Notes under the pieces: model-generated | Seen by the model: the letters and a program-made list of their open reading frames with translations, nothing else | Told to the model about the DNA's origin: nothing | Database searches by the model: none | Shown here: positions 2,941-51,484 of the stretch, piece after piece | Layout: the number at the start of each line of letters is the position of its first letter | Numbering within the stretch: the stretch's first letter is position 1 | Source of the DNA: an uncultured Clostridia bacterium | Lineage (GTDB): Bacteria; Bacillota; Clostridia; Oscillospirales; CAG-272 | NCBI GenBank assembly: GCA_946410595.1 | Contig: CAMKAU010000001.1 | Coordinates: forward strand, 10,267-74,266 | DNA length: 64,000 nucleotides | Direction: 5' to 3' | Translations under genes and position numbers: made by a program

Positions 2941-3636
2941 TCATCCCTGCAAAAACCGGATCGCGCGTTCCACCGCGTCCTTCGCGTTGTTCCACGGCTC
3001 GTCCTGATAGCGGTAGTCAAACTTTTTCACAAACCAGCGCACGTCCTCGCGCAGAGAATCGAAATACGGCCGCTCCACCTTTTCCGTCTCCTCGTAAAAA
3101 TCGGCAAACTCCTTCTTTGAAAGGGAGCGGGAGGCGCGCCCGAGCATCGCGGCGTAATGCGGCAGGCAGAATGAGGGCTGCGCCGCGAACTTCTCCCGGA
3201 AGGAATGATCCTCGCCGAAGAGATAGATCGCCGTGTCGAGCATCTTTTCAAAATGGAAGCGGATCTTCTCGCAGAGGTAGCAGGAGGAGGTCAGCGCGAG
3301 GATGCGCTCCTCCTCGGCCTGGGCGTTTGCGGCGGCGGAACGGAGCGGCGCTTTTTTAAAGAGCTTTTCCTGCTCGTCGAGATGGCTCTCGAGGAGGAGC
3401 GCGAGCGGGAGCTTTTTGCTCCGCTCCAGCATCTTTGAGAAATGATCGCGGCAAAAGCCGAGCTCGTTCGTGCGGATCCGAATATCCGGCTCCATCATCG
3501 AAGCGCCGAGGATACTCTCCAGCTCGTTTTCCTCCAGCATACGCTCCAGTGCGCAGAAGGGACACCCTTTCGCGTGATCGTCGCGGGACGCTTCAAACGC
3601 TTCGTTGACCGGTATGGTATAGATCTTTTCCGCCAT
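2941..3636 (-). CDS. Cys-rich hypothetical protein (DUF6062-like), two CxxC...CxxH half-sites
   Basis: The ORF-track ORF extends to 3711, but the ATG at 3636 (MAEKIYTIPV) is the likely start. Motifs present: CPFC, FCRDH, CYLC, FCLPH. Confidence 0.7.
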   Translation of the reverse strand: MAEKIYTIPVNEAFEASRDDHAKGCPFCALERMLEENELESILGASMMEPDIRIRTNELGFCRDHFSKMLERSKKLPLALLLESHLDEQEKLFKKAPLRSAAANAQAEEERILALTSSCYLCEKIRFHFEKMLDTAIYLFGEDHSFREKFAAQPSFCLPHYAAMLGRASRSLSKKEFADFYEETEKVERPYFDSLREDVRWFVKKFDYRYQDEPWNNAKDAVERAIRFLQG

Positions 3637-3782
3637 GGCAGAAGTCCTTTCTTTTTCGTCTTTCGGGCGCCGATAAACGGCAAAAAAACGGATAAGATAA
3701 GTGTAGCACAAAAAAACGAAAAAGTAAACAGCGGAAAAACCGAAAAAAGCCGGTTAAAAACAAAAAATATTCCCGAAAACCC

Positions 3783-3878: not shown

Positions 3879-4367
3879 ATGACGGAAACCAAAAATCCGA
3901 AAAGCGGAATCGCCGCGCGGGCGGAAGCGCTCGTCCTCCCCACGGCAAACGAACAGGGCCTGACGATCTGGGACGTGACCTTCGGCCGTCGGGGGACGGA
4001 CCGGTATCTCACCTTCACCGTCGACAAGGAAGAGGGGGTGACGATCGAGGACTGCGAGAAGTTCCACCGGGCGATCGATCCCCTGCTCGACGAAGCGGAC
4101 TGGATCGAAGGCAGCTATATGCTGGAGGTCTCCTCCCCCGGCATCGAGCGGGAGCTGACGCGGCCGGAGCATTTTGAATACGCCCTCGGCAGAGAGGTCT
4201 CCGCCAAGCTCTACGCCCCGCAGGACGGGCAAAAAACGATCACGGGCGTCCTCTCCGCGTACGAAAAGGACACGCTGACGCTGACGGATAACGGAAAGGA
4301 AACGGTCCTTCCCCGCCCGAACGTCGCCAAACTGACGACGGTTTATGATTTTGAAAACGAAACCTGA
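3879..4367 (+). CDS. rimP: Ribosome maturation factor RimP
   Basis: 162 aa with LEVSSPGIEREL motif. Conserved position upstream of nusA. Confidence 0.95.
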   Translation: MTETKNPKSGIAARAEALVLPTANEQGLTIWDVTFGRRGTDRYLTFTVDKEEGVTIEDCEKFHRAIDPLLDEADWIEGSYMLEVSSPGIERELTRPEHFEYALGREVSAKLYAPQDGQKTITGVLSAYEKDTLTLTDNGKETVLPRPNVAKLTTVYDFENET

Positions 4368-48281: not shown

Positions 48282-48315
48282 GACGCCGCCCGTTTGCGGG
48301 CGGCGTCCTTTTTTT
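48282..48315. terminator. Bidirectional terminator
   Basis: 11-bp stem gacgccgcccg/cgggcggcgtc flanked by A7 and T7. Confidence 0.85.
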
Positions 48316-49982
48316 CAGTTTTCCGGGACGCGGAGCATCCCCTCAAGTTCCCGCAGCGTCGAAGATAACGGCTCCGGGTATGCGCTCGGATCGGAGATCC
48401 GGTCGGGGTAAAGCTCCGCGCCGAGCGCGCGCAGCTCTCCAAGCGCGGTAACCGCCAGATCGAGCATCCGCTCCAGCTTGAAATCTCCGCCCGCCGCGGC
48501 CTTGCGGTAGCGGGCGCGGATCGTTTCGCTCTTTTCCGGGCTGATGATGCCAGCTTCGGCGCAGCGTTCCGTCAGCTCTCCGACGAGCGCGTCCGCCGCC
48601 TTGCCGAACAGGATCGTCCTGTTGAAGCGGTCGAGGATCCGTCCGCAGGCAAGGACCGTCTCTTTGTTTGCGACGGGGTCGAAATCCGCGCCAAGCCCGT
48701 CTAACTTCTCCAAAAAGGACAGGTCTTTGGCCGATTCGACCAGCGCCGATTTCTCCCGCTCGCGCTGCTCGGGCGAAGCGGCGGAAAGGGCGGCGGCGTC
48801 CGGGTAAACGAGATCGGCGATCTCCTCCGAGCCCCCGAGCGCCGAGAGTACGCTGTCGATCACCGAGCGCGAGGCGGCGGCTGTGAGCCCGTCGAGACCG
48901 GGGGAAGAAAAGAGGGTATCGGCTATGGCGCCGAGCGTTTCGGGATCCTCCAGCAACGCCTCGGGCGACCCGTCTTCGCTGAAGAGGGTCATATATCCCT
49001 TTTCGGCGAAGAGGGCGACGGTATTGCCGAAGGAAAGGTAAAGGTCGCCGACGGTTTCCGTGTCCACGGTTTCAAGGAAGTTGACGATCGCGCCGGACAG
49101 CTCGCCGCCTTCCTCTTCTCCTTCGGGAAGACGAATGCCGAGCCAGGGCTCCCCCTGCTCCCGCGCGGAGCGGATCGACTCCGCCGCGAGAACGCCGGCG
49201 GCGCGGCCGAGCGCGGAGCCGGACAGCGTTTCCGCGATCTCTCTGATCAGAACGGCGTCCTCTTTATCCCACGTCTGCGGGTCCTTTTCGAGCAGTTCCC
49301 CGCCGTCAAAAAGGAGAACGCCGACAAGCGCCGTTTCCGTTTCGTCGGCAAGGCAAACCGTTTCTCCCGCCACTTCGATCTCGGTCATACCCGAAAAAAC
49401 CGAATACGCTCCTATCGCGCCCATCGCGCCGTCCGCCTTTTCCCCGAGGAGGGTAAAGGACTTTTCCTCGGCGGGAAGATCGGATTTTTGCAGAACGGAA
49501 CGCGCCATCACACCGTATCCGTACAGCGGGAGCGAGACGGCGGCAACGAAAAAGCAGGCGGAAAGCAGACCGATCAGCGCGCCGGAAATCCGGCTGACGG
49601 CGGAGAGCGGCTTGTCCTTCGGCTCGATCCGCCGGGCCATCACAAGGCAGACGACAAGGGTGAGAAAGGCGAAAAGAAGAAAGAGAAGCAAAAAGAAGAC
49701 GGGCGCGGTAAGCGCGGAGAGGATCCCTCCGAGAAAGGCGGAAAACTCCCGCGGAACGGAGGCAAAGAGGTCCTCTTTCCCGGCGACAAGCAGGCCGGCT
49801 GAGACCAGACCTCCGCCCAGCAGCCGCGCCAGCGGCGGGGCGAGAAAATAGGCGCCGACCGCCGAGATGATCAGCGCGCCGAAGCGGATCAGCGCGTTCT
49901 TCCATCCCCGGAACAGAGAAACGAGGCAAAACAGGAAAGCTACAACCGCCGCCGCGATCCAGAAAATCAGAGCCGAATTCAT
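48315..49982 (-). CDS. Hypothetical membrane protein (CvpA-like N-terminal TM bundle plus ~400-aa acidic soluble domain)
   Basis: Start at MNSALIFWIAAAVV (49982) with AAAGGAGAG upstream. The track ORF start at 50252 would read through a promoter and the repeat array. Confidence 0.75.
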   Translation of the reverse strand: MNSALIFWIAAAVVAFLFCLVSLFRGWKNALIRFGALIISAVGAYFLAPPLARLLGGGLVSAGLLVAGKEDLFASVPREFSAFLGGILSALTAPVFFLLLFLLFAFLTLVVCLVMARRIEPKDKPLSAVSRISGALIGLLSACFFVAAVSLPLYGYGVMARSVLQKSDLPAEEKSFTLLGEKADGAMGAIGAYSVFSGMTEIEVAGETVCLADETETALVGVLLFDGGELLEKDPQTWDKEDAVLIREIAETLSGSALGRAAGVLAAESIRSAREQGEPWLGIRLPEGEEEGGELSGAIVNFLETVDTETVGDLYLSFGNTVALFAEKGYMTLFSEDGSPEALLEDPETLGAIADTLFSSPGLDGLTAAASRSVIDSVLSALGGSEEIADLVYPDAAALSAASPEQREREKSALVESAKDLSFLEKLDGLGADFDPVANKETVLACGRILDRFNRTILFGKAADALVGELTERCAEAGIISPEKSETIRARYRKAAAGGDFKLERMLDLAVTALGELRALGAELYPDRISDPSAYPEPLSSTLRELEGMLRVPEN

Positions 49983-50036
49983 CGCTGCGTTCTCTCCTTT
50001 CATACAAAGAATGGCGTTCCATTTCCCTTTTCTTTT

Positions 50037-50064
50037 ATTATACACCCTTTTTCCAAAAAGTCTA
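50037..50064 (-). promoter_or_regulatory. Putative promoter of the CvpA-like gene
   Basis: Minus strand: TAGACT, 16 nt, TGTATAAT (extended -10). Confidence 0.5.
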
Positions 50065-50095
50065 CCCTTTTGAGAAAAGAGAAAAGGGAGACGCG

Positions 50096-50295
50096 TTCGC
50101 CGAACGCCATCCGGGCGCTCGGCGAATGATGTGTTCCGCGAAGCGGAAGGTGATGCCCCCTGCGGGTATGATGCGAGGCTCCGCCTCATGATGCGCGCTT
50201 CGCGCATAGGCGGAACACGTCGCATCATGGCGACCGGAGGGAGCCGCATCATTTTTGCCGAAAGGTAAAAACCCCGTTAGGGCAAACATCATTTC
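50096..50295. ncRNA. Candidate structured RNA or nested inverted-repeat array (ATGATG x4 then CATCAT x3 with GC mini-hairpins)
   Basis: Hexamers at 50126, 50150, 50168, 50188 (ATGATG/GTGATG) and 50223, 50247, 50287 (CATCAT). Nested complementarity 1:7, 3:6 and 4:5. The transcribed strand is unknown. Confidence 0.3.
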
Positions 50296-50337
50296 TTCCT
50301 AAGCGTTTGGCGCACGAACGTCCTGCTCAGGATATAG

Positions 50338-50385
50338 AAAAAACCGGCTGAAATAAGGGATTGTTCCTTACTTCAGCCGGTTTTT
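50338..50385 (-). terminator. Terminator at the end of the 12.5-kb ABC operon (works in both orientations)
   Basis: Stem ccggctgaa ... ttcagccgg with an inner aagg/cctt extension, flanked by A6 and T5. Confidence 0.8.
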
Positions 50386-50434
50386 ATAAACCGTACTCAG
50401 GAGCGCCTTTCGCTTGCGTCTCCTTTTTTGCGTG

Positions 50435-51484
50435 TTAGCCGACCAGACCGCTGCGCTCGATGCCCTGAACGAGGAACTTCTGGCAGAAGAGGTAGAGGAC
50501 GACCAGCGGAGCGATGATCATCAGTCCGCAGGTATTCCGGATCGCCGACTCGAACAGGTTTTTGCCCGCGTAGGTCGTGGTAAGCGAGCTGGGGATCTGC
50601 ACGATATCCGGCATCAAAACCAGTTTTCTCGCGTTGGCAAAGAACAGATCCGTATAGAAGTTATCGGTCCACTGCCAGCAGAAGGCAAAGAGGAAGATGG
50701 TGACCATCATCGGGATAGAAAGCGGGATGATGATCTGGCAGAAGGTACGGAAGGTGCCGGAGCCGTCCACGTAGGCGGACTCTTCCAACTCGTCCGGAAC
50801 GCCGCGGTAGAACTGCCGCATCAGGAAGATGTAAAGGCCGTTCTTGAACGCGAGACCCGTGATGGAGAGCAGGATCAGAGGCCAGATCCCGTTATCGCCC
50901 GTCAGGTTGACAAGGAAGGACTGATTCCAGGCGCCGAGCTTGTTGAGCAGCCCGAAAAGCCCGAAAACGTCGAAATAACGGAAGTGCATATACATGGAAA
51001 GCTGGACCGTGCCGTGCGGGACGACCATCGTGATGATGACCGCGAGCATCAGCGCCGCGTTCCCTTTGAACTTGAACTTGGCAAGTCCGTAACCGACGAG
51101 GCAACAGATCAGCATCTGCGCGATCGCGGTCGAGAAGGAAACGAGGAAGGTGTAGGCAAACGCCTTCATGTACTGGTTCTCAACGAAGATCGCCTTGTAG
51201 GTGTCGAGCGTCCAGTGCTTCGGGATCAGGAAGACCGTGACGTCGATGAAGTCTTCCTGGCCCATCAGCGAGCCCGCGATCTTGGCAAAGAAGGGGTAAA
51301 GGATGACGTAGGAGATACCGAGAAGCAGGATCAGACGGAAGGCGTACCAAACGACGTTGGTAAGGAAATAGGTGTTGAGGAACTTTGCCTTCAGTCTCTG
51401 GAGGAGAGGCGTACGCTCAAACTCGACCTTGATCTTGTTTTTCGACTCTTTCATGACTTTGGGTGCGGTCGCTTGATTGTTCAT
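50435..51484 (-). CDS. Carbohydrate ABC transporter permease (MalG/UgpE-type), second pair
   Basis: EAA loop ELEESAYVDGSGTFRTFCQIIIPL. 349 aa with an extended periplasmic loop. Confidence 0.9.
   Translation of the reverse strand: MNNQATAPKVMKESKNKIKVEFERTPLLQRLKAKFLNTYFLTNVVWYAFRLILLLGISYVILYPFFAKIAGSLMGQEDFIDVTVFLIPKHWTLDTYKAIFVENQYMKAFAYTFLVSFSTAIAQMLICCLVGYGLAKFKFKGNAALMLAVIITMVVPHGTVQLSMYMHFRYFDVFGLFGLLNKLGAWNQSFLVNLTGDNGIWPLILLSITGLAFKNGLYIFLMRQFYRGVPDELEESAYVDGSGTFRTFCQIIIPLSIPMMVTIFLFAFCWQWTDNFYTDLFFANARKLVLMPDIVQIPSSLTTTYAGKNLFESAIRNTCGLMIIAPLVVLYLFCQKFLVQGIERSGLVG

What the first reader, a model, noticed from the sequence alone, without database searches (positions are those of the whole stretch)
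50065..50295. Intergenic array of nested ATGATG/CATCAT inverted repeats interleaved with GC mini-hairpins: candidate novel structured RNA or protein-binding array
Seen: four ATGATG-type hexamers occur at 50126, 50150 (GTGATG), 50168 and 50188. Three CATCAT hexamers follow at 50223, 50247 and 50287. Their extended forms pair in a strictly nested way: ATGATGCG 50188-50195 with CGCATCAT 50221-50228; ATGATGCG 50168-50175 with CGCATCAT 50245-50252 (plus GCTCC/GGAGC after a 2-nt bulge); and ATGATGT 50126-50132 with ACATCAT 50286-50292. An alternative 12-bp pairing joins 50128-50139 to 50210-50221. Between the tiers sit local hairpins: ttccgc-gaa-gcggaa, gaggc-tcc-gcctc, gcgcg-ctt-cgcgc and tttgcc...ggcaaa. 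Two further hairpins flank the array on the low-coordinate side: tcgccga...tcggcga at 50096-50126, and ccctttt...aaaaggg at 50065-50088. The element lies between the ABC-operon terminator (50338-50385, usable on either strand) and the putative promoter of the CvpA-like gene. I see no convincing promoter for it on either strand. Inference: it could be a rod-like multi-junction sRNA, a long cis-regulatory leader if the promoter call is wrong, or a DNA-level array of protein-binding sites. I cannot assign it to any RNA family I know.
Basis: seen in the sequence. Interest (0 to 1): 0.55.

Follow-up and report, generated by a model that had tools for sequence, protein, structure and literature searches.

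The report
Hairpin-array mobile repeat, cargo-less copy
The ATGATG/CATCAT hairpin array is real: it is a slightly decayed copy of an apparently undescribed DNA element repeated in rumen and gut Clostridia, here inserted into the loop of an operon terminator, and it looks more like the conserved end of small integrating gene cassettes than like a small-RNA gene.

Summary
The array exists exactly as described and is far from chance (fold z about -6.4 on both strands; motif pattern never seen in shuffles). It is not a local oddity. A syntenic relative has a simple terminator hairpin at this spot. In the window the two arms of that hairpin are split by a 321-nt insert (50095-50415) holding the array and the "ABC-operon terminator". 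Two pattern scans recovered about 100 distinct copies of the same element in rumen/gut Clostridia. The canonical form is a hairpin h0 (usually a bidirectional terminator), four ATGATG+mini-hairpin units, a linker, then four CATCAT+hairpin units. The hexamers barely vary, while the hairpin stems covary. 44% of copies sit right after a tRNA/tmRNA gene. Partial tRNA 3' ends flank or separate cassettes. The only recurrent neighbour gene encodes a PF05635 four-helix-bundle protein behind a consensus promoter fused to the last CATCAT. The window copy is degenerate (GTGATG at unit 2, 8-nt deletion of one CATCAT) and carries no cargo. Best reading: the cis-acting DNA module of non-autonomous integrative cassettes (confidence 0.5). 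An sRNA or leader is unlikely. No Rfam family, paper, phage or plasmid record matched it.

The parts
50095..50415 (+). Whole inserted element (321 nt). Family orientation 'A' is the + strand.
   Evidence: In the alignment with the syntenic empty site L003, the insert splits the loop of the ancestral terminator hairpin. The segment is homologous to copies at unrelated loci: L045, L047, L146 and L156. A family HMM built without the window hits 50091-50296 (+) at E=6e-30, against 26 bits on the reverse strand.
50086..50094 (.). Left arm of the ancestral host terminator hairpin (GGGAGACGC). Host sequence, not element.
   Evidence: Orthologous to the L003 hairpin GGGAGACG-CTTTTA-CGTCTCCC.
50416..50423 (.). 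Right arm of the ancestral host terminator hairpin (GCGTCTCC). Host sequence.
50096..50126 (+). h0 hairpin (TTCGCCGAACGCC-ATCCG-GGCGCTCGGCGAA) directly before the first hexamer. Subfamily-2 form, without a T-run.
   Evidence: Inverted repeat I4. It aligns with the h0 of L045, L047, L146 and L156. In subfamily 1 the equivalent h0 is a bidirectional terminator whose stem covaries strongly.
50126..50207 (+). First half of the array. Hexamers: ATGATG 50126, GTGATG 50150 (mutated), ATGATG 50168, ATGATG 50188. Mini-hairpins: h1 50134-50148, h2 50156-50167, h3 50175-50187, h4 50191-50207.
   Evidence: Hairpin conservation with compensatory changes across copies.
50210..50221 (+). Linker GCGGAACACGTC, complementary to GATG plus the 5' arm of h1 (50128-50139).
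   Evidence: Inverted repeat I7. The same three-way relation (5' arm, 3' arm of h1, linker) holds in subfamily 1 with different sequence: TTTGCCC, GGGCAA and GGGCAAACATCG.
50223..50292 (+). Second half of the array. CATCAT at 50223, 50247 and 50287. Hairpins: h5 50229-50246 (tandem G.A type), h6 50253-50272, h7 50273-50286. The seventh hexamer is lost by an 8-nt deletion between 50272 and 50273.
   Evidence: Internal-loop statistics.
50293..50337 (+). Spacer containing TTTGGCGCACGAACGTCCTGC, conserved in L045 and L047.
50338..50385 (.). Bidirectional intrinsic terminator carried by the insert. It now ends the ABC-transporter operon on the minus strand.
   Evidence: Inverted repeat I1, 20-nt arms, 95% complementary. 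Homologous to the terminator in L045 at an unrelated locus. The relative L003 instead uses the ancestral hairpin as its terminator.
50386..50415 (+). Right end of the insert, with a degenerate copy (AGGAGCGCC, 50399-50407) of the left terminator arm. It can pair with 50416-50423.
   Evidence: Read from the sequence. Same topology as the roughly 50-nt imperfect direct repeats flanking the L146/L156 copies, which also sit in a terminator loop. The repeat in the window is an inference.
50037..50064 (-). Promoter-like site of the CvpA-like gene (TAGACT-16-TATAAT). Host sequence outside the element.
   Evidence: Conserved in L003, which has no array.

Best explanation
The array is the conserved non-coding core of a 321-nt, cargo-less and slightly decayed copy of an interspersed DNA element family of rumen and gut Clostridia. 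I call it the ATGATG hairpin-array element. This copy was inserted into the loop of the terminator hairpin of the ABC-transporter operon. It brought its own bidirectional terminator, which now does the job of the disrupted one.

In the family, the module (h0 hairpin/terminator plus array) is the end of small, recombinase-less cassettes. That end abuts the integration junction at the 3' end of tRNA/tmRNA genes, or, as here, a terminator hairpin. I infer that the array works at the DNA level as the cis-acting site for an unidentified recombination machinery supplied in trans. The invariant AATGATG/CATCATT hexamers would be the recognised sequence. The covarying mini-hairpins would bring the hexamers into a fixed geometry when a strand folds.

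Shown: family membership, the insertion, the structural covariation, the link to tRNA ends, and the partial-tRNA repeats. Inferred: that the array is the recombination site, that the folded strand is DNA, and that a short inverted repeat with a 6-8-nt spacer (T-arm or terminator) is the target. In its present place the window copy probably does nothing beyond terminating and insulating transcription.
For: 1. Insertion. The syntenic relative (74% identical CvpA-like protein, same gene order) has a 134-nt intergenic region with the intact hairpin GGGAGACG-CTTTTA-CGTCTCCC. The window has the same arms 321 nt apart.
2. Family. Scans of species-representative genomes and of metagenomes gave 82 and 97 stretches, and parsing gave 97 distinct copies with at least 3+3 hexamers, 70 of them with all eight. 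The window copy scores E=6e-30 against an HMM built without it. It shares h0, array, spacer and terminator with L045, which lies at an unrelated locus.
3. Selection on single-strand structure.
- The spacers fold far better than shuffles (mean z -2 to -5).
- Many base pairs show Watson-Crick types that differ on both sides.
- On alignment A2, 95.7% of cells are paired against 87.7% in shuffles, and 205 cells have double changes against 68, with 0 of 500 shuffles as high.
- This holds within the promoter-less subfamily 2 as well.
- Spacing between hexamers varies (for example 14-19 nt), which suits a folded form better than phased duplex sites.
4. Integration signature.
- In 34 of 78 copies with enough upstream sequence, the first hexamer starts 33-44 nt after the CCA end of a co-oriented tRNA or tmRNA of 13 kinds. 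None is in the opposite orientation.
- L114 and L179 carry 20-21-nt direct repeats of the tRNA 3' end at the far side of the cassette.
- At least 10 further copies are preceded by tRNA 3' fragments that start at the T-loop.
- This is the pattern described for tRNA-targeting integrative elements (10.1101/2020.12.28.424599, read).
- The L146/L156 copies also sit in a terminator loop, flanked by imperfect direct repeats.
5. Tandem and cassette-like arrangements occur in L028/L116 (three copies) and in L137, L186, L188 and L114.
6. Not an ordinary transcript. The array is bracketed by a terminator T-run and a -35 box in subfamily 1, and by a terminator and the host promoter in the window.
Against: - No recombinase gene or motif was found in any of about 100 held loci, so the mobilising enzyme is unknown and mobility is inferred from comparisons only.
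- No clean target-site duplication or perfect direct repeat flanks the window copy.
- Known att arm sites are not built of hairpins. The hairpin covariation would fit an RNA as well.
- Orientation A folds better than B in 73 of 96 copies with RNA parameters, but only 64 of 95 with DNA parameters.
- The hexamers were part of the search patterns and of my 'canonical' filter, so their invariance is partly built into the sampling. About 30% of family-like hits have one hexamer altered.
- Copy number within a single genome could not be measured.
- Only 2 of 34 tRNA-adjacent copies had a detectable downstream tRNA repeat, though most contigs are short.
Confidence: 0.5

Rival explanations
1. Duplex-DNA operator or insulator array. 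The eight hexamers would be binding sites for a regulator, possibly the PF05635 four-helix-bundle protein encoded next door. That regulator would control the consensus promoter fused to the last CATCAT and shield it from the strong upstream tRNA transcription. The window copy would be an orphaned remnant.
For: - In subfamily 1 the last CATCAT overlaps the -35 of TTGACA-17-TGnTATAAT promoters.
- The four-helix-bundle gene starts 49-59 nt downstream in about 22 of 54 detectable downstream genes. It is the only recurrent neighbour, found in 29 loci and always co-oriented. It is confirmed as PF05635/TIGR02436.
- The hexamers are conserved as sequence and do not covary.
- The array always lies in untranscribed DNA between a terminator and a promoter.
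Against: - Subfamily 2 (W, L045, L047, L121, L146, L156) has no fused promoter and no four-helix-bundle gene, yet keeps all hexamers and shows compensatory hairpin changes.
- Hexamer spacing is variable and not phased.
- Hairpin covariation has no role in a duplex operator.
- Tandem gene-less copies exist.
Confidence: 0.2
2. Structured RNA. The array would be transcribed, either from a cryptic promoter or by read-through of the upstream terminator. It would act as an sRNA, a 3' trailer of tRNA operons, or a protein sponge with a ladder of four-way junctions.
For: - Very stable predicted fold (z about -6.4).
- Stem covariation.
- Strand asymmetry favouring orientation A: tandem G.A and GGA/GGA internal loops and GNA/GNRA loops occur only on that strand, G.T pairs outnumber A.C pairs in unit 6, and A is more stable than B in 73 of 96 copies.
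- In orientation B, subfamily 1 arrays are followed by a terminator.
Against: - No Rfam match and no promoter.
- In subfamily 1 there is no room between the terminator T-run and the first hexamer, or between the last hexamer and the -35 box.
- Orientation relative to host transcription is inverted between subfamilies.
- Loops are mostly triloops (TTC, TGC, GAA, GCA) rather than the tetraloops typical of selected RNA hairpins.
- Presence/absence at the window locus, and tRNA-fragment repeats, point to DNA insertion.
Confidence: 0.15
3. Functionless local sequence: chance inverted repeats or hairpin expansion by replication slippage at a terminator.
For: It sits inside a terminator hairpin, and the copy is partly decayed.
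Against: About 100 homologous copies exist in many species at unrelated loci, with conserved architecture and compensatory changes. The pattern was seen in 0 of 100 shuffles.
Confidence: 0.03
4. Protein-coding: the 76-codon minus-strand ORF, or the N-terminal extension of the CvpA-like ORF, is translated.
For: The ORFs exist.
Against: - No protein homologue was found in 5.8 billion sequences, and there was no Pfam hit.
- Spacer lengths among copies differ by 1-2 nt, which breaks any reading frame.
- The relative's CvpA-like gene starts at the same ATG with the same ribosome-binding site, without the region.
Confidence: 0.01

Closest known systems
tRNA-targeting integrative elements and their degenerate remnants (e.g. 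tycheposons; T-loop class of tyrosine-integrase att sites, Williams 2002)
   Same: The element lies immediately after a tRNA/tmRNA gene and is co-oriented with it. Partial tRNA 3' ends that start near the T-loop flank or separate successive units. Variable accessory cargo accumulates next to the tRNA. The element supplies a new terminator (paper read).
   Different: No integrase was found in any locus. Units are tiny (0.24-1.4 kb). At least 13 different tRNAs are used by one family. Some copies, including the window's, sit in terminator-hairpin loops. The arm next to the core is a 175-nt ladder of hexamers and hairpins, unlike any described arm.
REP/BIME elements of enterobacteria and pseudomonads
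   Same: Extragenic arrays of short GC-rich palindromic units in two orientations. They lie at the 3' ends of transcription units, with many copies and a possible role as single-stranded DNA.
   Different: Here the unit of homology is the whole 175-nt array. The hairpin sequences within it differ from one another, while an invariant hexamer separates them. No RAYT transposase link was seen. Association with tRNA ends and with a PF05635 gene is not a REP feature.
Correia elements (Neisseria) and other promoter- or terminator-carrying MITEs
   Same: Small, non-autonomous and intergenic. Ends are inverted repeats (AATGATG...CATCATT). They carry outward promoters and terminators and can be co-opted for expression of neighbouring genes.
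   Different: No TA-type target duplication was seen. The terminal repeat is only 7 nt long and is reiterated internally four times per half. Insertion sites are structured (tRNA 3' end, hairpin loop).
Integron attC sites and gene cassettes
   Same: A recombination site defined by conserved short boxes plus conserved folding rather than sequence. Strand asymmetry is present. One site accompanies each small promoter-proximal gene. Gene-less units exist.
   Different: No GTTRRRY/RYYYAAC boxes and no IntI nearby. Cassettes carry their own promoter. The location is beside tRNA genes. Integrons are not known in this bacterial group (from my own knowledge).
23S rRNA intervening sequences that encode a PF05635 (S23p) protein
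   Same: The partner gene belongs to the same family. Those elements also replace the loop of a hairpin (helix 25/45) and are regarded as selfish elements of unknown mobility (abstract of PMC4990558, listed).
   Different: Those lie inside rRNA and are excised from the RNA by RNase III. No hexamer array has been reported for them, and I did not test this here.

Membership tests
ATGATG hairpin-array element family (defined here) | Sequence and architecture match to a family profile built without the window copy | tested here: met
   nhmmer hit at 50091-50296 (+), E=6.4e-30, 98 bits. With a subfamily-1-only profile, E=2.9e-20.
ATGATG hairpin-array element family (defined here) | 4 ATGATG + 4 CATCAT hexamers, each followed or preceded by a mini-hairpin, plus a linker complementary to the first unit | tested here: met
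   The window has 3 ATGATG + 1 GTGATG and 3 CATCAT. The seventh hexamer was lost by an 8-nt deletion. The linker is present. It is a degenerate member.
Any Rfam RNA family | Covariance-model score at gathering threshold, or E<=10 over the array | tested here: not met
   No hit over 50095-50337. Only weak chance-level hits on the terminator hairpin. None over arrays in 13 related loci.
Independent sRNA gene | Own promoter and terminator in a consistent orientation | tested here: not met
   No promoter-like site. In subfamily 1 the array abuts the terminator T-run and the -35 box. Orientation relative to host transcription differs between subfamilies.
Independent sRNA gene | A transcript is detected | not testable with these tools
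   No expression data available.
MITE | Terminal inverted repeats and a target-site duplication | tested here: inconclusive
   A 7-nt AATGATG/CATCATT repeat sits at the array ends (I6), but it is also reiterated internally. No clean duplication flanks the window insert. Imperfect repeats of about 50 nt flank L146/L156.
MITE | Many copies per genome and a related transposase-encoding parent | not testable with these tools
   Whole genomes are not held. There is one copy in the 64-kb window and up to three or four per held locus.
Site-specific integrative element at tRNA genes | Direct repeat of the tRNA 3' end at the distal junction | tested here: met
   Seen in family members, not in the window copy: L114 (20 nt) and L179 (21 nt). 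tRNA 3' fragments lie before at least 10 other copies.
Site-specific integrative element at tRNA genes | Integrase encoded in the element | tested here: not met
   No recurrent neighbour other than PF05635. No tyrosine- or serine-recombinase motif in 413 ORFs of the held loci, by a crude motif test. No Pfam hit in L189 neighbours.
Integron attC | R''/R' core boxes (RYYYAAC / GTTRRRY) and an IntI integrase nearby | tested here: not met
   The boxes are absent from the consensus. No integrase was found.
REP/BIME | Repeated, near-identical palindromic units with a conserved 5' tetranucleotide, linked to a RAYT gene | tested here: not met
   The hairpins within one array differ in sequence. No RAYT-like recurrent gene was seen, though whole genomes were not examined.
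Protein-coding gene (76-aa ORF) | Conserved reading frame and protein homologues | tested here: not met

The most novel reading that the evidence does not exclude
The array would be the folded single-strand recombination site of a new kind of gene-cassette system in Clostridia. Small promoter-bearing cassettes, often led by an Avd-like PF05635 four-helix-bundle protein, would insert into the loops of short hairpin-forming inverted repeats: tRNA T-arms, intrinsic terminators, and by extension the rRNA helices that host PF05635-encoding intervening sequences. They would use a trans-acting or host recombinase, with the four-helix-bundle protein as the hexamer-binding architectural factor.
Probability: 0.18. 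Interest if true: 0.85.

Novelty: new variant of a known kind. Interest (0 to 1): 0.62.

Why it matters
If the reading holds, a large group of uncultured rumen and gut Clostridia carries an undescribed, recombinase-less cassette system. It plants terminator-array-promoter modules and small accessory genes next to tRNA genes and inside terminators. That would explain part of their flexible gene content.

It would also give the enigmatic PF05635 '23S rRNA intervening sequence' proteins a testable cis partner. And it offers a compact natural terminator-insulator-promoter module.

For annotation, it warns that this very stable 'structured RNA-like' region is an inserted repeat. It also shows that the ABC operon's present terminator is imported.

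Tried and rejected
- Rfam, at gathering thresholds on the whole window and at E<=10 on 49900-50500, gave nothing over the array.
- BLAST of the insert and of a canonical family member against phage and plasmid collections gave no match.
- The protein search with the 76-aa ORF found no homologue. Pfam found nothing on the ORFs.
- An exact look-up of the window's CvpA-like protein found nothing, and contigs carrying the permease end at the gene.
- The first three-part pattern also pulled in arrays from Bacteroidales, Chloroflexota, Myxococcota and others. I rejected these as family members: the family HMM gives E>1e-4 and no PF05635 gene lies nearby.
- An integrase was sought by clustering neighbour ORFs, by motif and by Pfam on a viral contig. 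None was found.
- GC skew, used as a proxy for orientation relative to replication, was uninformative: 17 of 29 positive.
- Compensatory changes between partner hexamers: only four variant pairs exist and none is compensated.
- Mini-ORFs starting at ATGATG are in frame in some copies only (spacer lengths).
- Literature searches on the motif, on PF05635 and on loop-inserting elements found no description.
- I did not build a covariance model. Profile-HMM and per-hairpin analyses answered the same questions.
Full report
**1. The observation**

- ATGATG is at 50126, 50168 and 50188, GTGATG at 50150, and CATCAT at 50223, 50247 and 50287.
- The nested complementarities and the alternative 12-bp pairing are reported as inverted repeats I6, I12, I16 and I7.
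- Folded as RNA, 50060-50300 gives -118.3 kcal/mol on the + strand (z -6.3) and -113.8 on the - strand (z -6.5). None of 200 dinucleotide shuffles was as stable.
- The three-part motif ATGATGCG..CGCATCAT..CGCATCAT never occurred in 100 shuffles of the window.
- No second copy exists in the window.
- Rfam gives nothing over the array, either at gathering thresholds or at E<=10.

**2. Local context: the array is part of an insertion**

All flanking genes are on the minus strand.
- An ABC permease ends at 50435.
- A CvpA-like gene starts at ATG 49982, with a weak Pfam Colicin_V match.
- A promoter-like site, TAGACT-16-TATAAT, lies at 50064..50037 on the minus strand.

The only relatives of the CvpA-like protein are its own record and a 74%-identical protein from a goat-rumen Clostridia genome.

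That genome has the same gene order: DUF5696, two permeases, the CvpA-like gene, a 2-thiouracil desulfurase-like gene and citrate synthase. Its intergenic region is only 134 nt. It reads stop-AACGCAGAAAGGGAGACGCTTTTACGTCTCCCTTTTCTCTTTT, followed by the same promoter and ribosome-binding site.

In the window the two arms of that terminator hairpin survive at 50086-50094 and 50416-50423, separated by 321 nt (50095-50415). It follows that:
- the array, its flanking hairpin at 50096-50126 and the "ABC-operon terminator" (50338-50385) are one inserted segment sitting in the loop of the ancestral terminator;

Gain in the window is more parsimonious than precise loss in the relative, because the same segment occurs at unrelated loci elsewhere (section 3).

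**3. A large family**

*Scans.* A scan of one genome per species with the three-part motif returned 82 stretches.
- Thirteen or so, all from rumen or gut Clostridia (Oscillospiraceae, Ruminococcus, 'Eubacteriales' genomes), show the same architecture as the window.
- One of them (L016) is in the very genome whose orthologous site is empty.

A second pattern (GAATGATGT..TCGCATCAT..CATCAT) found 97 stretches in metagenomes and 3 in viral contigs.

Parsing gave 97 distinct copies with at least 3+3 hexamers, 70 of them with all eight.

*Canonical layout.* Read on the strand I call orientation A, the element consists of:
- h0, usually a bidirectional terminator (aacAAAAAAcgcacTTTTGTCtaccGACAAAggtgcgTTTTTTGA);
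- four units of ATGATG plus a 4-6-bp hairpin (h1-h4, loops TTC/TGC/TAC);
- a linker (GGGCAAACATCG) complementary to GATG plus the 5' arm of the first hairpin;
- four CATCAT hexamers separated by three hairpins (h5-h7, loops GAA/GCA/GTAA).

*Membership of the window copy.*
- A profile built without the window finds 50091-50296 on the + strand at E=6e-30. The reverse strand scores only 26 bits. The + strand is therefore orientation A.
- The window belongs to a subfamily with L045, L047, L121, L146 and L156. It has a different h0 (...CGGCGA) and a first hairpin TGTTCCGC..GCGGAAC.
- Alignment shows an 8-nt deletion in the window that removed the seventh hexamer. With the GTGATG at unit 2, this makes it a degenerate copy.
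- W and L045 share h0, array, spacer and terminator over about 300 nt, although their flanking genes differ.

Hits from other phyla in the first scan are different repeat families that happen to contain CGCATCAT.

Caveat: the hexamers were part of the search patterns and of my filter. About 30% of family-like hits have one altered hexamer.

**4. What is conserved and how**

*The hairpins are conserved as structures.*
- Spacers fold much better than their shuffles (mean z -4.9, -4.2, -2.5, -1.9, -2.5 and -3.7 for units 1-3 and 5-7).
- Many pairs show Watson-Crick types that differ on both sides.
- On the 63-sequence alignment A2, 95.7% of cells are paired, against 87.7% in shuffles. There are 205 double changes against 68, with 0 of 500 shuffles as high. 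Sliding the 3' partners by 1-3 columns lowers pairing to 26-57% and the covariation score from 0.21 to at most 0.07.

*The hexamer-hexamer helices never vary.*
- Their pairing is therefore not supported by covariation.
- The four variant hexamers seen among canonical copies are uncompensated.
- So the hexamers are conserved as sequence.

*Other features.*
- Spacer lengths vary by non-multiples of three, and hexamer spacing is not phased. This argues against coding and against a rigid duplex operator.
- Strand asymmetry exists. Hairpins h5 and h6 carry tandem G.A or GGA/GGA internal loops (15 of 26 and 7 of 17 distinct h5 variants). Second-half spacers are 64% purine and first-half spacers 61% pyrimidine.
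- Orientation A folds better than B in 73 of 96 copies with RNA parameters and in 64 of 95 with DNA parameters.
- The preference for C-GNA-G and C-TTC-G triloops is more typical of DNA hairpins than of selected RNA hairpins. This rests on my own knowledge of d(GCGAAGC)-type mini-hairpins.

**5. Genomic company**

*tRNA and tmRNA genes.*
- In 34 of 78 copies with enough upstream sequence, the first hexamer lies 33-44 nt after the CCA end of a co-oriented tRNA or tmRNA gene of 13 kinds. None is in the opposite orientation.
- In L114 the order is: tRNA-Ser, h0, array, promoter, four-helix-bundle gene, GNAT-like gene, two short direct repeats, h0, array, a 20-nt repeat of the tRNA-Ser 3' end, h0, and the start of a third array.
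- In L179 a 1.3-kb unit (h0, array, promoter, one gene) is bounded by the tRNA-Gln gene and a 21-nt repeat of its 3' end. An ordinary terminator follows.
- At least ten 'non-tRNA' copies, plus the viral-contig copy L189, are preceded by tRNA 3' fragments that begin at or near the T-loop.

This is the signature of site-specific integration into tRNA genes, with successive accretion. [quoted passage not shown]

*Terminator-loop insertions.* The L146/L156 copies, like the window's, sit in the loop of a terminator hairpin. They are flanked by imperfect direct repeats of about 50 nt. The window's right end holds a degenerate copy (AGGAGCGCC) of the left arm. I treat this only as suggestive.

*Promoter and partner gene.*
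- In subfamily 1 the last CATCAT runs into TTGACA-17-TGnTATAAT, then a ribosome-binding site and a small gene.
- The only recurrent partner is a 117-130-aa protein (29 loci, always co-oriented, start 49-59 nt after the array). It is PF05635 '23S rRNA-intervening sequence protein' / TIGR02436 'four helix bundle protein' (E 1e-28 and 8e-32), distantly Avd-like.
- Other cargo is diverse: lipoproteins, XRE-type regulators, GNAT and nucleotidyltransferase-like genes.

*Other arrangements.*
- Several loci hold two or three units, one per small gene. Others hold gene-less tandem units.
- No recombinase was seen in any held locus.
- The window itself has no tRNA and no PF05635 gene.

**6. Interpretation**

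*Shown:*
- the array is a member of a conserved, multi-locus, multi-species element;
- this copy is an insertion into a terminator loop;
- the hairpins are under selection for pairing;
- the family is tied to tRNA 3' ends, with partial-tRNA repeats.

*Inferred:*
- The h0+array module is the cis-acting end of small non-autonomous integrative cassettes.
- The hexamers are the recognised sequence.
- Folding of one DNA strand, or extrusion, sets their geometry.
- A tRNA T-arm and a terminator are both short inverted repeats around a 6-8-nt spacer, which is the usual shape of a tyrosine-recombinase core site (general knowledge; Williams 2002, as cited in the paper read). One mechanism could therefore explain both kinds of target.

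*Why not RNA?*
- The array has no promoter.
- In subfamily 1 it is squeezed between a terminator T-run and a -35 box.
- It is inverted relative to host transcription in subfamily 2, including the window.
- It is absent from a relative that keeps the same genes and promoter.

The RNA reading keeps some weight (0.15) because of the strand asymmetry and because terminators leak.

A duplex operator or insulator for the fused promoter, perhaps bound by the four-helix-bundle protein, is the stronger rival (0.2). It does not explain structure conservation in promoter-less copies.

In the window, the element's practical effect is that the ABC operon now ends at an imported terminator. The array itself is probably inert and decaying.

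**7. Comparison and novelty**

The element works most like the tRNA-proximal arm of integrative elements, and like MITE or REP/BIME-type intergenic repeats. It fails defining tests for each:
- integrative elements: no integrase;
- MITEs: no clean target duplication;
- integron attC: no attC boxes;
- REP/BIME: no REP-type identical units.

I found no description in Rfam, in the searched literature, or in phage and plasmid records. I file it as a new variant of a known kind: an interspersed structured repeat, or the end of an integrative cassette.

The more novel reading is a cassette system that inserts into hairpin loops and is partnered with PF05635 proteins. This would also bear on the unexplained 23S rRNA intervening sequences. 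It is not excluded. I give it about 0.18.

Noticed in passing
L016 about 3520-3665 (+); L034 minus strand between the tmRNA end (4506) and h0 (about 4350): A tRNA-like sequence of about 100 nt ending in ..CCACCA or ..GTACCA. It has an acceptor-like pairing (GGAGGCG/CGCCTCC) and a loop containing TCA. It may be a tRNA-Sec or tRNA-like RNA. Neither ARAGORN nor Rfam at gathering thresholds called it. It lies between a tRNA/tmRNA gene and the element.
   Followed up: no
L011, L022, L054, L061 (Segatella hominis); L037, L044, L057, L076 (Prevotella); L012, L014, L065 (Bacteroides); L010, L026, L036, L080, L088 and others: Other phyla carry their own tandem arrays built on (A)ATGATGCGCATCAT(T)-type palindromes, several per genome. 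The family HMM does not match them and no PF05635 gene lies nearby, so they are separate repeat families of unknown nature.
   Followed up: partly
window 48315-50252 (-): The 645-aa ORF listed mechanically is an artefactual N-terminal extension of the CvpA-like gene through the array. The real start is ATG 49982, with the ribosome-binding site AAAGGAGAG, as in the relative L003.
   Followed up: yes
window 50293-50337 and the equivalent stretches of L045 and L047: On the minus strand a conserved TT(C/T/G)GTG lies 17-18 nt upstream of the first AATGAT hexamer. AATGAT itself has the key A2 and T6 of a -10 box. This is a weak promoter-like arrangement that the consensus scan did not call.
   Followed up: no
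L114 (second copy), L119, L134, L137 (second copy), L141, L165, L178, L181, L186 (second copy): 60 nt upstream of h0: Internal (non-tRNA) copies are preceded by two direct repeats, approximately GTGTACTTTTAGYYGTTCTTWC and ACGCACCTTTTAGTCGCTCTTTC. They resemble the 5' arm of h0. They may be the other arm of the cassette junction or protein-binding iterons.
   Followed up: no
L028 982-1650 (= L116, L120): Three gene-less h0+array units stand in tandem downstream of tRNA-Pro and a PF05635-like gene. A fourth, weak, degenerate copy lies directly after the tRNA (274-490).
   Followed up: partly
L034 about 3919-4167 (-): A truncated remnant of the four-helix-bundle gene lies downstream of the array. 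This shows decay of the partner gene in some copies.
   Followed up: no
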